Shown: positions 3,001-7,207 of the stretch, one piece after another | How positions within the stretch are numbered: the first letter of the stretch is position 1 | How the letters are laid out: the number at the start of each line of letters is the position of its first letter | Virus record (IMG/VR): IMGVR_UViG_2675903559_000012 | Direction: 5' to 3' (one strand) | From: a virus | Lineage: Duplodnaviria; Heunggongvirae; Uroviricota; Caudoviricetes | Length of the DNA stretch: 7,207 nucleotides | Position numbers: made by a program

Positions 3001-6000
3001 ACCTACCGGAATTTTTTTCCGGTTAAACGTTAATCAGGCTGGTGGGCTTTACCTGTTCGGTAGGTGTTATGATTATCGTAATACCTTTCCCCCAATGGGG
3101 TAAAAGCATCAACCGTAACGAAAGTCGTTATGGTTGCCACTGATACCCCAAATTTGGGTATCACGAGTAAGACCCAAAATCTGGGTGTTACTCTTACTAC
3201 CCAAACTACGGGTAGTTTCCGTAGTTTCATGGTCGAGTTGCAGATCTGCAACTCCCCCATTAACCACAGGCGAATTTCCGCCTTCGGTCATTCCTTAATC
3301 ATCTGCGTAATCATAATGATTATTCAGCAAGCGCAATTTTGCGCTTTGCTTAAAGTTCAGCGAGTTACCGCGCCGACTTCCTCAAATTGAGGTTTCCGAA
3401 AATATCAGCGGGTTAGCGATTAAGCTGATCATTAATTAAACTGCGAAAATTTCGTAGTTTGTGACTGTCTTTCAGGCAGCTTGTTAACAGTCCTCAGAAG
3501 CGAGGGATGTAGCCACCCATTTTTGGTCCGTCGGGAATATCAACCAGTTACCGCCGCAACCGCTCCGGCTTCTTCCAGTGGTACGTTATTTTCTCCTTCT
3601 CCCGATACATCTCCACGCGGCGACGGTAGGCCAGCAACTCAAGAACTCTGGTTCGTATGTTGCGCATATCCACGCCATTAAGTTCTATACCATCACGGCG
3701 CATCACCTCAGCAACAACACGCGCATAGTTTTCGGCTGTCACGCTGTCCGGCTGCGTGGTCTGTTCGTCAGCCTGCTGGCTGATTCCAGAGACGCGGCGG
3801 ATTAATCGCAGTATTTCGGATTCAGTCATAGCGTACTACGTTACTTATCTTTATTCGGCTGCAACTTTTCCGGTACGTTTCCGGTTGTTTCTTTCAAGTA
3901 ATCAGCCAGTATCTGTGGGAGGTTGTCGGCAACTCTGGCACTGGCATTACAGGCTTTAACCACTTCCCTTTTAAGCCTATCCAGCATGGCGGGGGTAATC
4001 TGTGGGAAGCTCCTTTGCATAGTAAGCGGGAGGCTGTCCATGATTGATGAAATCTGACTCGCCAGCTTTGAAAGCGCGTACAGGCAAAACTCAGTATCGA
4101 TCACGTCACCGCGATCGCGCTCGTTTTTAAGTTCCTGCGCCTCCGCCTGTGCTGTCAGTAATCTGATCCTGACTCGTAAGAGTTCATCATCATCAATATC
4201 GCCTTTGTCGTTTGTAAGCTGGCTAATTGCATTGTTAACCCTATTGTCTATCACGCTGGCAACATCGTAAAACGCCTCACGGCCTTTACGTTCAACGGGA
4301 GTCACTCCCCACTTGTCGAACGCTGTCGCACTTACACGGCAGCTTTTCGCCATGTTTTTTTTGTTCATCAGGTGCGATTTCATTAATACACCAACTTAAT
4401 TACTGCTTCAGGTTGGTGTATTGTTTGCATCTTTCCCTTTTCATTCATAAAGATAGAGCAAACAACAAAACCACCACCACCCCCCTGAAAAGGCTCATAA
4501 ATAGCGAAAAACCGCGAGGTCGCCGCCCCGTAACGGGTCCATATGCCGGAAAGGACCCGTAAAAAAAAGCCGGATTTCTCCGGCCTTGTCTCAGATGGTT
4601 TTCAGTATGCGATCGATGTCGCCGTCATCGCCCTGGTTTCTGCCATCGTATGCCATGCCAGCTGATACGGCTTGCGGGCTGTGCATGTCCATAAAGTTTT
4701 CAAAGGCTGCGGTAAGTTCCGGCGCAACCTTCGGACGTTCCTGCTCTATGGTCATGCTAAGGATGCTTTTAGCCGTACCAACATCGATACAAGGCACGTT
4801 TGCCATTGCACGTAACAGCGGCTGATAGTCGCCAGATTCATCAAGCGCCATAATCGCATCAGCGCGCGGCTTGTCCTGCTCTTCCAGTTTGTTAAGTTGA
4901 TATATGGCCTCGTAGGTTGATAACCCTCTGTCAGCCATTGCCCGCGCTTCGGCTTTAAATTTACTCGCCAGCGGTAGCGTCATGATGCTTTCATTCGTTG
5001 CCATCGTTCCCCCTGCTTATCGGGCCAGCGGCTGAACGGATACGCCAGAACCCGCAAAGGCGGCGCATTTTTTCGCATCGGTGTCGACGCTCTCAGGCCA
5101 GTTAACGGCGGCAATATTGAATATCCCCGTCTTGTAACACTGTGCTGATTTCTGCTTTGACGTGTCCACAGGATACGAAGTCAGATAAACAGCCTTGCCA
5201 GATTCCTGACCATCCCACGGCTTAAACTCGCCATTGTCCGCCAGCATCAGCGGGGTAAATTCCTGAATAACGCCAGCATCAACGGCAAAATGTACCAGCG
5301 TCGTGGCGACCTGCTGACTGCCTGCAAATAACTCAATGTATGGAGTGTCCATAGAATCCCCCGTTAAGCAATTTTGACGGTAACAAATTTGCGAATATCT
5401 GCCGGAACCGGCTGCGGTGCGCTGTGCGTCTGCACGTACTCAATCGCCGGATCGCCGTCCTCAATCCAGTTTTTCGGGTAAAACATGTTTTGCGTTGCGC
5501 CCGTTCTTACTGCGTCCTGATCCATAATCGCACCATAGGCCACCAGCCCTTTATTGTTGGTGTTGCCCAGGACAAGCAAATCAGGCTCAAGGAAATATTT
5601 TTCTGTGCCGTCGCTGTCGGCGTATTTGCCGGAATAGACGATAAGGGCAATATCGCCCAGATAGCCTTTAAAGCTCACCACTTCGCCCAGGTTTTTACAG
5701 GCCAGCTCTGCGGCGGACTCTGAACCACGGGAAAGATCGTACAGCTCACGGAATTTTTTAAAGCTGCGTAACGTGCGCCATACCTCAGCGCCCATAATCA
5801 TGACGTTTGCGGGGCAACCAGCCTGATCAGCATAAAGCTCGATGTCATAGATTGGATCGTGTGTTTCCTTATCTGCCTCTGACCACTTTTTACCCGGTCC
5901 CTGTCTGGCGATGTTTTTACTTGGGATCTTCCAGTCTATTTCATAGCGTTCTATGCCTTCGCCCTCAATGATGTTTTTTCCGGTCGTTATCGCATTCACC

Positions 6001-7207
6001 GCCAGCCATTCCACGCGCGCTTTAATGGCGTTTATCTGGCGGCGCATGTTGCCAGTAATCAGGCGCATACGGCGGTAGGTAGGGTCGTTAAGCTGTGCTG
6101 GATCTTCTCCAGCCATGCGCATGATGGTTTTTGTTGGATCGATTTCGTGCTTTGGCTTCATGTAGCCAGGTTTGATTGTGCTGGTTTCGTACCCTTTATC
6201 GCGCTGAACCTGGCTACCCACCATAGGCGAACAAAACGCCGACATGGTGACTTCTTCAATGTCCAGGGTATCCAGCATGATGTTTTGGGTGCTGAATGTC
6301 GCCACGTTCGGGAAAAACAGCGTGGTAAACAGCGGACTGAATTTAAATTCCGCAATATCCCCGCGATTCAGGTACGCAAAAAGCTGGTTAGTGTTAAGTG
6401 CCATTGCTTTTACTGTCATTATTCACCCCCATAATTTTTATGCATCCCAAGCGCCGCAAGTAAATAAGAGCGCACAAGTGAACCTATCGACGGCTCCGGC
6501 GTCATCAGCGGATCCAGTCCAGCTGCCACGCCAGCCTCATAGTTTTTTTTGTGGCGCTGCTTGAGCACCTCCACGATTTCGGGGCTTATGTACACCGAAA
6601 CACCGCCTTTTTTCTCTTCAGCCATAGTAAGAAATTCCTCTTTGACTTAAAAAATCATAACTGGATGTTCATCCAGATCTGATTATAATCATGATTGCAT
6701 TTTATGCAATGATGTTGAGTTGTGTTGCAAATTATGAAATGATGATCCCGATCATGTGTGTCAGTGCACCAAAAAAAACCTCATATGCAAAAGCCCGATA
6801 AGATGCCTCCTGTACTTATCGGGCTTTTTTTGGGTACAAAAAAGCCGGATTACTCCGGCTGTTGATTAGCTGCCTGGGTAATTACGCCATATTTCATCGC
6901 TTACACCATCTATACTCATTTCAGCATAAGTGCGATCGACTGCCTTTCTCAGGTCTCCGAAGTTATCCGGCGGCTCCGGTGGCCTCTGTGCCTTCCTGGA
7001 ACATTCCAGCCGTCGCATCGTAACCTGATGCCGTTCCTTGTCTGTCTCCACCAGCTGCATGACTTCACCCCATCGCGCCGCCGCCCTCCGGTAAAATCCT
7101 TTCGCCTCGAGTTCCTCCGCTATGCGGTCATGTATCATCGCCTGACTCTCCGGTTTTTACGTTGATGGTTGTTACCTGTTCCGCTTCGGCAATCTCCCGT
7201 TCTGTCA

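What the first reader, a model, noticed from the sequence alone, without database searches (positions are those of the whole stretch)
4561..6859. Duplicated terminator module and an orphan plus-strand terminator suggesting a small antisense RNA
The hairpins at 4569-4584 and 6844-6859 are almost the same sequence (GCCGGATT-t/a-CTCCGGC with a flanking A-run), suggesting a reused terminator cassette. Separately, 6793-6831 is a strong plus-strand terminator (perfect 10-bp stem plus T7) although every gene in the element is on the minus strand. It could end a short plus-strand transcript from the 6626-6790 region, or insulate the element from read-through.
Basis: seen in the sequence. Interest (0 to 1): 0.4.

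Follow-up and report, generated by a model that had tools for sequence, protein, structure and literature searches.

The report
Satellite terminators and a candidate sRNA
Two look-alike hairpins are ordinary transcription stop signals that a family of E. coli phage-satellite islands reuses at the ends of its gene blocks; the odd opposite-strand stop signal most likely closes an undescribed non-coding RNA gene of about 80 bases, with its own conserved promoter, between the island's early genes and its capsid genes.

Summary
All three hairpins are real and lie at the stated coordinates. The window holds host genes (asr to tqsA') and the right part of an EcCICFT073-type phage-inducible chromosomal island (PICI) inserted in tqsA.

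Hairpins A (4569-4584) and B (6844-6859) are minus-strand intrinsic terminators:
- A closes the capsid operon directly in front of a lambda-type cos site.
- B closes the perC gene.
- Their 26-nt identity (24/26) is not chance. The same cassette occurs 1-3 times per island and in 1142 of 5426 E. coli genomes, and homology between islands often breaks at it.

Hairpin C (6793-6831) is a plus-strand terminator:
- Diverged relatives (E. coli, Salmonella, Edwardsiella, Cedecea, Scandinavium) carry seven unrelated stems at the same place, all with a U-tract on the plus strand. The minus side is often poor.
- About 50 nt upstream lies an extended -10 promoter (TTGAGT-17-TGaAATGAT). Its key bases are invariant across four lineages.
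- The sequence between promoter and terminator varies freely.

This predicts an RNA of about 80 nt (about 6750-6831), divergent from the capsid-operon promoter. It overlaps no annotated gene, so "antisense" is not supported. It matches no Rfam family, and neither its expression nor its function has been shown.

The parts
4561..4587 (-). Hairpin A: intrinsic terminator that closes the capsid-decoration-scaffold operon. Stem 4587..4566 with U8, directly abutting cosQ.
   Evidence: Top hit of the terminator scan. Fold -16.5 kcal/mol, z -3.6. Relatives have a terminator at this position with other stem sequences.
4440..4560 (-). Lambda-type cos junction: cosQ-like ACGGGTCCTTTCC (4560..4548), the cosN 12-nt end GGGCGGCGACCT (4528..4517), and the start of cosB.
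   Evidence: It aligns with lambda's right end joined to lambda's left end. BLAST hit to the phage 21 cos/terminase/IHF region and 95.8% identity to phage PhiR5_1.
4591..6625 (-). Late operon: 68-aa protein (6625..6419), lambda E-like major capsid (6419..5364), D-like head decoration (5352..5017), and a 137-aa protein resembling the Nu3 scaffold (5004..4591).
   Evidence: ORFs. Pfam PF03864 for capsid homologs and PF02924. PHROG phrog_53 C-terminal match for the 137-aa protein. The CFT073 homologs c1498-c1501 rise together at 37 C (PMC12890032).
6682..6709 (-). Predicted promoter of the late operon: -35 TTGCAT (6709..6704), 16-nt spacer, -10 TATAAT (6687..6682). Predicted start near 6675.
   Evidence: Best minus-strand hit of my PWM scan in the window and at the homologous place in L175, L173 and L178. 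The TTGC of the -35 is invariant across 7 sequences. Not tested experimentally.
6715..6743 (+). Predicted promoter of the plus-strand RNA: -35 TTGAGT (6715-6720), 17-nt spacer, extended -10 TG (6735-6736) and AATGAT (6738-6743).
   Evidence: Top plus-strand PWM hit in the window, L175, L173 and L178. The invariant columns fall on TTG, TG, AAT and the final T. TTGAGT in 52 of 57 and AATGAT/AATTAT in 53 of 57 unique contexts.
6750..6831 (+). Predicted non-coding RNA of about 80 nt: a variable body (6750-6788) and terminator hairpin C.
   Evidence: Predicted length 77-83 nt in 55 of 57 unique contexts. The body differs in sequence and length between lineages while the promoter and terminator persist. 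No Rfam family matches.
6789..6831 (+). Hairpin C: plus-strand intrinsic terminator. AAAA+GCCCGATAAG / CTTATCGGGC+T7, with loop ATGCCTCCTGTA.
   Evidence: Folds. The stem is invariant and the loop variable in 57 unique sequences. Replaced by unrelated plus-oriented terminators in diverged relatives.
6837..6860 (-). Hairpin B: intrinsic terminator of the perC gene and the early/accessory block. Second copy of the cassette.
   Evidence: Second-best hit of the terminator scan. Fold -12.6 kcal/mol, z -3.9. Homology with many relatives ends at 6859-6862.
6866..7138 (-). PerC-family transcriptional regulator gene (90 aa).
   Evidence: Pfam PF06069, E 1.3e-43. RefSeq annotation in L003.

Best explanation
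The window shows the boundary between the early/accessory block and the late (capsid) block of an EcCICFT073-type PICI. Three intrinsic terminators punctuate it.

Shown:
- Hairpin B stops minus-strand transcription after perC.
- Hairpin A stops the capsid-decoration-scaffold operon immediately before the lambda-type cos site.
- A and B are copies of one terminator cassette that this island family places after many different genes. Homology between islands often breaks at it.

Inferred from anatomy and comparison:
- Hairpin C is the terminator of a separate plus-strand transcription unit.
- A sigma-70 extended -10 promoter (TTGAGT, 17 nt, TGaAATGAT; 6715-6743) lies back to back with the late-operon promoter. 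Their -35 elements are 5 bp apart.
- It would start transcription near 6750. Hairpin C with its U7 tail would release an RNA of about 80 nt at about 6831, 12 nt short of perC's terminator.
- The RNA has no conserved reading frame.

Speculative:
- The RNA is a regulatory small RNA of the satellite.
- Its conserved CCUCC-type loop could pair with Shine-Dalgarno sequences in trans.
- Alternatively the RNA could pair with, and so neutralise, any early-operon transcript that reads through B into the late operon.
For: Context:
- The 100%-identical and 93%-identical relatives L003 and CFT073 carry int, an AlpA-type regulator, primase, ssb/perC, this capsid operon, cos and terS/rpp.
- An element at the same tqsA site has the same layout.

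A and B:
- They are the best terminator hits.
- The 24/26 repeat is unique in the window, with 0 of 200 shuffles showing one.
- The cassette occurs 1-3 times per locus after the scaffold-like gene, perC/pchE, a 74-aa gene or ssb.
- It is in 1142 of 5426 E. coli genomes, median 2 and up to 7 places.
- BLAST homology to the window stops at 6859-6862 or at 6830 in most relatives.
- A terminator directly before cosQ is kept with other stems in diverged relatives.

C:
- The exact stem is found only beside this regulatory region.
- Seven unrelated stems occupy the same position: E. coli types I and II, two in Salmonella, and one each in Edwardsiella, Cedecea and Scandinavium.
- Five of those stems have plus-strand U-tracts of 6-9. 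The other two are the E. coli type I stem, which drops to 5 in a few of its variants, and one Salmonella stem, which reads U6CU4 or U4CU4.
- The minus-side tails are UUUCAUGC, UGUGUCUG and UAAUGGAU in three of them.
- In 57 unique type-I contexts the plus tail has at least 6 T in 55, whereas the minus tail is TTTTGC/TTTTGT in 55.

Promoter:
- It is the top plus-strand PWM hit at the homologous position in four lineages.
- Across 7 sequences from 4 lineages the invariant columns between 6700 and 6745 are the TTGC of the late -35, then TTG, TGCA.A, TG, AAT and T of the plus-strand promoter. There are none in 6744-6800.

Structure: a 5-bp hairpin in the Salmonella RNA body keeps pairing through a U-A to C-G double change.

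The late operon is its own unit: c1498-c1501 rise together in CFT073 without a helper phage.
Against: - No transcript was observed. I found no RNA-seq, TSS or northern data for this region.
- The promoter score in any single sequence (10.3 bits) is no better than the best hit in shuffles of this AT-rich region (median 9.8).
- The promoter lies in a block that is conserved as a whole and also holds TTGCA repeats. It could therefore be an upstream activator or operator site of the late promoter.
- In type-I islands and in Edwardsiella, C has an A-tract and 4 U on the minus side, so it could work in both directions.
- In Salmonella L173 and L464 no B-type hairpin separates the upstream gene from C, so there C may be that gene's only terminator.
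- Lelliottia (L179), L460 and L461 show no such plus-strand terminator.
- No consistent pairing target was found.
- The covariation evidence is a single pair in 4 sequences, and it does not tell the strands apart.
Confidence: 0.6

Rival explanations
1. C is a second, back-up or bidirectional terminator for minus-strand transcription. Together with B it insulates the late operon from early-operon read-through, and no plus-strand RNA is made.
For: - In the window C folds equally well on the minus strand (-20.5 kcal/mol). It is preceded by A7 and followed by UUUUGCAU.
- B and C lie in tandem, 12 nt apart.
- One variant (L101) has 5 U on the minus side.
- In L173 and L464 no other hairpin follows the upstream gene.
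Against: - The minus-side tail is never better than 4-5 U. It is poor in the type II, Salmonella and Cedecea versions, while the plus-side U-tract is always canonical.
- A B-type terminator is already present in nearly all E. coli elements.
- This reading does not explain the conserved extended -10 promoter pointing at C.
Confidence: 0.15
2. A plus-strand RNA is made, but it is a functionless by-product. Divergent or pervasive initiation occurs next to the late promoter, and C exists only to keep that transcription from running antisense into perC, ssb and the primase gene.
For: - The late promoter's -10 lies in a palindrome (TGATTATAATCA, 6680-6691) that gives TATAAT on both strands.
- The RNA body is not conserved and varies in length.
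- No target was found.
Against: - The palindromic plus-strand TATAAT is lost in type II islands (TTTAAT), whereas the TTGAnT-17-TGnAATnAT promoter is kept.
- Loop motifs of the CCUC/CCUCCU type recur in four of the seven unrelated terminator stems. The same 8-mer GCCTCCTG occurs in the window and in Salmonella L464.
- The Salmonella body hairpin shows a compensatory change.
Confidence: 0.15
3. The conserved element acts on the minus strand. In early-operon read-through RNA, hairpin C displays a CAGGAGG / GAGG loop. This would be a CsrA-type GGA site or a decoy Shine-Dalgarno sequence, in a long leader that modulates late-gene translation.
For: - The loop motif read on the minus strand is CAGGAGG (window, L056 type, L464), GAGGAGG (L173) or GGAUGAGG (type II). 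These resemble the CAGGAxG loops of CsrB as I recall them; I did not test this.
- In type II and Salmonella versions C would not terminate minus-strand RNA.
Against: - It needs read-through of B, which is a canonical terminator.
- Half of the type-I loops read CAGAGG, without GGA.
- The plus-strand U-tract and promoter are left unexplained.
- No start codon is conserved downstream of the motif (sequence read).
Confidence: 0.05

Closest known systems
Rho-independent (intrinsic) terminators of E. coli, including tail-to-tail pairs between convergent units
   Same: - A, B and C each have a G+C-rich stem, a short loop and a U-tract.
- C and B lie tail to tail, 12 nt apart, like the terminators of convergent genes.
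   Different: - The unit that C closes has no ORF.
- A and B share 24 of 26 bases and belong to a cassette repeated within and between islands. Terminator function does not require that.
Short prophage sRNAs AgvB/AsxR (EcOnc01-03) of EHEC lambdoid prophages (Tree et al. 2014, PMC4104026)
   Same: - Small RNAs on mobile elements, transcribed against the direction of the neighbouring operons and ending in intrinsic terminators.
- They have a conserved 3' part and a variable 5' part.
   Different: - There is no sequence or Rfam similarity.
- Those RNAs are 51-60 nt and lie in moron sites downstream of PR' in prophages; this one is about 80 nt and lies in a PICI.
- Expression, Hfq binding and the anti-sRNA role are shown for them and not for this candidate.
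- Here even the terminator stem changes between lineages.
Lambda OOP RNA and P22 sar RNA (small counter-transcripts in temperate phages; recalled from the literature, not tested here)
   Same: - Size of about 70-80 nt, with their own constitutive-type promoter and an intrinsic terminator.
- They are oriented against the main operons at a boundary between regulatory modules.
   Different: - OOP and sar overlap their target mRNA (cII, ant).
- This RNA overlaps no annotated gene. It would be complementary only to read-through from perC.
Satellite regulatory RNAs: P4 CI RNA and the PLE sRNA SviR (bioRxiv 10.1101/2022.04.08.487710, listed; P4 CI as summarised in PMC10111431)
   Same: Phage satellites are known to encode small RNAs that regulate satellite and helper genes.
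   Different: - The elements, position and sequence differ.
- CI is processed from a longer transcript within the immunity/Bro region, not at the early-late boundary.
- I found no sRNA reported for Gram-negative PICIs.
Morons and module boundary sequences of lambdoid phages (recalled from Juhala et al. 2000 and related work; morons are mentioned in PMC4104026)
   Same: - Small accessory genes (perC/pchE, a 74-aa gene) are each followed by their own terminator.
- Homology between elements breaks at these terminators.
   Different: - Here the same terminator sequence is reused at up to three junctions of one island.
- Whether it actually mediates recombination is inferred, not shown.

Membership tests
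Intrinsic (Rho-independent) terminator | G+C-rich stem-loop of clearly lower free energy than shuffled sequence | tested here: met
   A -16.5, B -12.6 and C -22.6 kcal/mol; z -3.6, -3.9 and -4.5.
Intrinsic (Rho-independent) terminator | Run of U directly 3' of the stem on the transcribed strand | tested here: met
   - A has U8 and B has U6 on the minus strand.
- C has U7 on the plus strand and only UUUUGCAU on the minus strand.
- The plus tail has at least 6 T in 55 of 57 variants.
Intrinsic (Rho-independent) terminator | Actual 3' ends of transcripts at the U-tract | not testable with these tools
   No Term-seq or 3'-end data were available.
Gram-negative PICI of the EcCICFT073 type (Fillol-Salom et al. 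2018, PMC6092414) | Integrase, AlpA-type regulator and primase/replicase in one direction, island size about 10-15 kb, specific att site | tested here: met
   - These genes are not inside the window, which ends in perC.
- They are met in L003 (identical in the 281-nt stretch 6600-6880 that was compared), in L001 (same tqsA site) and in CFT073 itself.
Gram-negative PICI of the EcCICFT073 type (Fillol-Salom et al. 2018, PMC6092414) | cos site of helper type plus a terS/Rpp gene; capsid (c1499) and decoration (c1500) homologs | tested here: met
   - cos junction aligned to the lambda ends, with a hit to phage 21 cos.
- Phage_Nu1 terS.
- The query 6600-6880 matches CFT073 at 92.8% over its first 263 nt.
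- The paper names c1499 and c1500.
Gram-negative PICI of the EcCICFT073 type (Fillol-Salom et al. 2018, PMC6092414) | Induction and high-frequency transfer by a helper phage | not testable with these tools
   Shown for EcCICFT073 in the literature, not for this island.
Any curated RNA family (Rfam 15) | Score at or above the family's gathering threshold | tested here: not met
   - The only hit in the window is Spy1186876, 26.8 bits against a threshold of 208.
- Nothing was found at the homologous place in L173, L175 or L178.
Bacterial small regulatory RNA gene (generic) | Own promoter and own terminator, no conserved ORF, conserved in related elements | tested here: met
   - Promoter and terminator are conserved in position across lineages.
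- The 15-codon frame starting at 6754 is not kept: the length of the A-run varies, and L175 has ATG TAG.
Bacterial small regulatory RNA gene (generic) | Detected transcript of defined size | not testable with these tools
   No expression data were found.
Hfq-dependent sRNA | Terminator with a long U tail, a U-rich stretch just upstream of it, and Hfq binding | tested here: inconclusive
   - The U7 tail is present.
- The sequence upstream of the stem is A-rich (CAUAUGCAAAAG), not U-rich.
- Hfq binding cannot be tested here.
cis-encoded antisense RNA | Overlap with a gene or UTR transcribed from the opposite strand | tested here: not met
   - The predicted RNA spans 6750-6831.
- The late operon's predicted start is near 6675 and runs leftwards.
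- perC ends at 6866 and its terminator at 6843.
- Overlap would exist only with read-through RNA.

The most novel reading that the evidence does not exclude
EcCICFT073-type PICIs encode a previously unrecognised small RNA at the early-late boundary. Its terminator loop carries an anti-Shine-Dalgarno-like CCUCC motif, kept across unrelated stems. The RNA would control translation of satellite or helper late genes, or the timing of capsid-operon expression, and so form part of how the satellite exploits its helper.
Probability: 0.2. Interest if true: 0.65.

Novelty: new member of a known kind. Interest (0 to 1): 0.4.

Why it matters
EcCICFT073-type islands are the model Gram-negative phage satellites. 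They occur in many pathogenic E. coli and carry virulence regulators such as PerC/Pch.

How their capsid operon is controlled is not described in the papers I read. Those papers do not mention terminators, and they mention promoters only for alpA and int.

- A conserved small RNA gene placed back to back with the late promoter would be a concrete, testable regulatory part of these satellites.
- It would also be a part to keep or remove on purpose when the islands are engineered as delivery vehicles.
- The reused terminator cassette gives a simple marker of module junctions, useful for annotating and comparing these islands.

If the RNA proves not to exist or to be inert, the finding reduces to ordinary operon punctuation.

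Tried and rejected
1. Rfam on the window and on three diverged relatives gave no family. The Spy1186876 hit is far below threshold.
2. Two scans of species-representative genomes were unproductive.
   - The capsid protein query confirmed no relative.
   - The promoter pattern TGCAAATYATGAAATNAT returned only chance hits in unrelated phyla, none beside a capsid homolog.
3. An alternative plus-strand promoter using the palindromic TATAAT (6684-6689, start near 6696) scores 9.2 bits, but it is lost in type II islands. I ranked it below the TTGAGT promoter.
4. A small protein is unlikely. The 15-codon frame from 6754 is not conserved.
5. Target search gave nothing usable.
   - RNAduplex of the RNA against the translation-initiation regions of its own island, in three lineages, gave no shared target.
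   - Pairing of the loop with the ribosome-binding site of the first late gene is strong in Salmonella (-19 kcal/mol, 0.8% of shuffles). It is marginal in CFT073-type islands and absent in the window, in type II and in Edwardsiella.
   - The loops pair with many lambda Shine-Dalgarno regions without consistency.
6. The idea that the 68-aa first gene product is a ribbon-helix-helix autoregulator is unsupported. There is no Pfam hit. The AlphaFold model (pLDDT 72.5) has two helices and no significant PDB match.
7. EHEC Sakai/EDL933 sRNA catalogues do not apply. Their island Sp7/OI-51 has a different late module (HK97-type, capsid-forming) and lacks hairpin C, although it has the A/B cassette twice.
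8. Searches for the stem sequence in the text of papers found only primer coincidences.
9. The resemblance of TTGAGTTGTGTTGC (6715-6728) to lambda CII sites (TTGC-N6-TTGC, from memory) was noted but not tested.
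Full report
**What the window is.** Bases 1 to about 2795 are E. coli chromosome: asr, ydgU, ydgD, mdtI, mdtJ and the first 144 nt of tqsA. The rest is the right-hand part of an island inserted in tqsA.

An element at the same site (L001), an element identical in the 281-nt query stretch 6600-6880 (L003), and the prototype EcCICFT073 of strain CFT073 (L002, 92.8% over the first 263 nt of that query) all share one layout. They carry an integrase, an AlpA-type regulator, Icd-like and DUF4222 genes, a primase, ssb and/or perC, then a 68-aa gene, a lambda E-like capsid gene, a D-like decoration gene, a 134-141-aa gene, cos, terS or rpp, and a 93-aa gene, nearly all on one strand. 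This is the Gram-negative PICI architecture of Fillol-Salom et al. (PMC6092414, PMC6739421).

- The window stretch 2600-7207 is covered at 80% or more in 387 of 5426 complete E. coli genomes.
- The 6600-6880 stretch occurs in 740 genomes.

- A and B are part of a 26-nt direct repeat, 24/26 identical. It is the only such pair in the window, and none was seen in 200 shuffles.
- Read on the minus strand, A and B are the two best terminator-like sites in the window. They fold far better than shuffles.
- C has a 10-bp G+C-rich stem. An AAAA/UUUU extension lengthens it to 14 bp, and U7 follows on the plus strand (-22.6 kcal/mol, z -4.5).

**What A and B are.**

Hairpin A ends the capsid operon.
- Its U-tract runs straight into a complete lambda-type cos junction. 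The minus strand from 4560 down to 4440 aligns with lambda's right end (TTTACGGGTCCTTTCCGG...GTTACG) joined to its left end (GGGCGGCGACCTCGCGG.TTTTCGCTATTTATGA).
- The only phage DNA matches of the island are to this stretch, including the cos/terminase/IHF region of phage 21.
- Diverged relatives also have a terminator exactly between the last late gene and cosQ, but with other stems (AGCCGAT..ATCGGCT, CGCGAGG..CTCGCG, GGGCGC..GCGCCC). The position is therefore what is conserved.

Hairpin B ends perC (PF06069).

The cassette AAAAGCCGGATTnCTCCGGC is a family feature.
- It occurs once to three times per locus in the 84 loci that carry it, out of the 85 sequences then in hand (the window included). 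It always acts as a minus-strand terminator, after the scaffold-like gene, after perC/pchE, after a 74-aa gene or after ssb.
- It occurs twice in the capsid-forming island Sp7 (OI-51) of O157:H7 Sakai, which has a different late module.
- It is in 1142 of 5426 E. coli genomes, with a median of 2 and up to 7 places. It is therefore accessory DNA, not a core-genome terminator.
- BLAST homology between the window and its relatives stops at 6859-6862, the outer edge of B, in one large group. In another it stops at 6830, the end of C's T-run. Beyond these points the sequence is unrelated.
- In the second group a B-type copy lies about 180 nt further on. There it is flanked by a degenerate copy of the cosQ-cosN stretch, which suggests that the cassette spread together with cos-proximal DNA.

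I conclude that A and B are ordinary terminators and that their identity reflects cassette reuse at module junctions. That the cassette itself promotes recombination is an inference. The identity is not universal: type II islands use different hairpins at the two places.

**What C is.** The exact stem GCCCGATAAG...CTTATCGGGC occurs only beside this capsid-operon regulatory region. In 57 unique sequences the stem is almost invariant. The loop and the 30 nt upstream (6744-6775) vary.

The decisive evidence comes from islands whose capsid protein is 54-86% identical to the one in the window. They have a different hairpin at the same place, about 170-215 bp upstream of the late operon:

| Lineage | Hairpin and tail |
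|---|---|
| E. coli type II | TCCCCCGG..CCGGGGGA + T7-9 |
| Salmonella, first type | CCCGCCAG..CTGGCGGG + T6CT4 or T4CT4 |
| Salmonella, second type | ACCCCCAACCG..CGGTTGGGGG + T6 |
| Edwardsiella | GCCCCCC..GGGGGGC + T8 |
| Cedecea | AGCAGC..GCTGCT + T8 |
| Scandinavium | GCGGG..CCCGC + T6 |

- Every one has a canonical U-tract on the plus strand.
- On the minus strand the tail is UUUCAUGC, UGUGUCUG or UAAUGGAU in three of them, and 4 U in the window type and in Edwardsiella.
- In the 57 type-I contexts the plus tail has at least 6 T in 55, while the minus tail is TTTTGC/TTTTGT in 55.

Turnover of the stem sequence with the position and the plus orientation retained argues that plus-strand termination is the selected function. 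Lelliottia L179, L460 and L461 lack such a terminator.

**A promoter for it.** About 50 nt upstream of C lies TTGAGT (6715-6720), a 17-nt spacer, then TG (6735-6736), one base, and AATGAT (6738-6743).

- With a simple PWM built from textbook sigma-70 frequencies (my own values), this is the best plus-strand site in the window. It is also the best at the homologous place in type II E. coli and Salmonella (TTGACT-17-TGaAATCAT or AATGAT, 12.2 bits) and in Edwardsiella (TTGTTC-17-TGcAATAAT).
- The score in any one sequence is not above what shuffles of this AT-rich region give (median best 9.8).
- The weight therefore rests on the comparison. In an alignment of 7 sequences from 4 lineages, the invariant columns between 6700 and 6745 fall as follows:
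  - GCAA 6706-6709, which is the TTGC of the late promoter's -35 on the other strand;
  - TTG 6715-6717;
  - TGCA.A 6726-6731;
  - TG 6735-6736;
  - AAT 6738-6740;
  - T 6743.
- Nothing is invariant from 6744 to 6800.
- The variable positions are position 5 of the -35 and position 4 of the -10, which matter least for promoter function.
- The conserved TGCA.A and the TTGCAT...ATGCAA palindrome (6695-6709) show that the block also holds a protein-binding site. Conservation of the block is therefore not explained by the promoter alone.

The late operon's own promoter is predicted at TTGCAT (6709..6704), 16 nt, TATAAT (6687..6682), back to back with the plus-strand promoter. In CFT073, c1498-c1501 rise together at 37 C without a helper phage, which fits an autonomous late unit bounded by C/B and A (PMC12890032).

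**The predicted RNA.** A start near 6750 and an end at about 6831 give about 82 nt.
- The predicted length is 77-83 nt in 55 of 57 type-I contexts.
- By my count from the extracted sequences and the aligned region, it is about 65-95 nt in the other lineages.
- The body differs completely between lineages and has insertions and deletions. No reading frame is kept.
- In the four distinct Salmonella-type RNA sequences (from six loci) the body holds a 5-bp hairpin with one compensatory double change, U-A to C-G. This is weak evidence and says nothing about the strand.

An unexplained regularity is the loop of the terminator. In four of the unrelated stems it carries CCUC, CCUCU or CCUCCU. The 8-mer GCCTCCTG is shared by the window and Salmonella L464, although their stems have nothing in common. 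Read on the plus strand it resembles the anti-Shine-Dalgarno sequence. Read on the minus strand it is CAGGAGG.

No Rfam family matches. I found no report of an sRNA in Gram-negative PICIs.

**Mechanism, with its status.**
- Shown by sequence and comparison: three intrinsic-terminator-type hairpins; A and B on the minus strand at the ends of two gene blocks; C oriented to the plus strand; a conserved promoter-like element pointing at C.
- Inferred: an RNA of about 80 nt is made from 6750 to 6831, divergent from the late operon and converging on perC's terminator.
- Speculative: it is a regulatory RNA. It could act in trans through its C/U-rich loop, or by pairing with early-operon RNA that escapes B, as lambda OOP does with cII mRNA (from memory).

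Searches for a target gave nothing consistent. The rivals are a back-up or bidirectional terminator, a functionless by-product RNA with C as an insulator, and a minus-strand leader element. They are set out with their tests in the rivals section.

**Comparison with what is known.** As terminators, A, B and C are ordinary. The closest parallels for the RNA are:
- the short convergent prophage sRNAs AgvB/AsxR (conserved 3' part, variable 5' part; PMC4104026);
- lambda OOP and P22 sar;
- the satellite RNAs P4 CI and PLE SviR.

It shares no sequence with any of them, and it fails the defining test of a cis-antisense RNA. It is best filed as a candidate new sRNA gene of a known general kind.

**Verdict.** The duplicated module is a reused terminator cassette, which is ordinary but useful as a junction marker. 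The orphan plus-strand terminator is real, conserved in position and paired with a conserved promoter, so a small plus-strand RNA is the best reading (confidence about 0.6). Expression and function remain to be shown.

Noticed in passing
window 111-125: asr carries a one-base deletion in its A-run (A5 instead of the A6 in L001). The frame then reads ATG AAA AAG TAT TAG, and the long ORF restarts at 145. This is either a real frameshift in the signal-peptide region or a homopolymer sequencing error.
   Followed up: partly
window 2646-2795: tqsA (AI-2 transporter gene) is cut after about 144 nt by the island. Host sequence is identical to L001 up to about 2795 and diverges after ...ATATATAACTTATTT, so the attachment junction lies there.
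   Followed up: partly
L003 6019-6083; also L001, L002 and many IMG/VR loci; absent from the window (3829-3841): Many relatives carry a second, inverted, about 66-110-nt copy of the cos-proximal sequence between the terS/rpp gene and the 93-aa gene. In the window these two genes are only 11 nt apart and the copy is missing.
   Followed up: no
L027 3415-3480 (window orientation: to the right of hairpin C): In the class whose homology stops at C's T-run, a B-type hairpin lies about 180 nt further on. It is flanked by a degenerate cosQ/cosN-like stretch (GCGCCTCCCGCCCCGT...CCAGGAGGACCCGTAAAAAAGCCGG), as if the cassette had been copied together with cos-proximal DNA.
   Followed up: no
window 4591-5004 (minus strand): The 137-aa product matches the C-terminal part of the PHROG head-maturation-protease family phrog_53 (E 9e-9), which is the region corresponding to lambda scaffold Nu3. 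One RefSeq record calls the homolog a head-tail connector, and most call it hypothetical.
   Followed up: partly
window 6793-6831 and the homologous hairpins in L175, L173, L464 and L467: The terminator loop keeps a CCUC/CCUCCU motif (GGAGG on the other strand) in four unrelated stems. The window and Salmonella L464 share GCCTCCTG. In Salmonella the loop is strongly complementary to the ribosome-binding site of the first late gene (-19 kcal/mol); in the window it is not.
   Followed up: partly
window 6661-6755: The late regulatory region is packed with palindromes: CTGGATGTTCATCCAG (6661-6676), TGATTATAATCA (6680-6691), TTGCATTTTATGCAA (6695-6709) and ATGATCCCGATCAT (6742-6755). TTGCA occurs three times (6695, 6705 on the other strand, 6725). 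These are probable operator sites for an unidentified regulator.
   Followed up: no
window 3140-3215: Three copies of a short palindromic unit (ACCCCAAATTTGGGTA, ACCCAAAATCTGGGT, ACCCAAACTACGGGT) form a 33-nt imperfect inverted repeat in the non-coding stretch between the 93-aa gene and the island end. They may be recombinase or regulator binding sites.
   Followed up: no
L084 19712-35172 (O157:H7 Sakai Sp7) versus L172 (O157:H7 Rafaela_II): At the same phoQ/roxA site some O157:H7 strains carry the capsid-forming island Sp7/OI-51 (HK97-type head, portal, protease, terL). Others carry an island with the lambda E/D-type late module of this window. The early halves are similar, so the late module has been swapped.
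   Followed up: partly
L173 7301-7454: The Salmonella relative carries a hok/sok toxin-antitoxin locus (Rfam sok, 109 bits) just after its terS gene.
   Followed up: no
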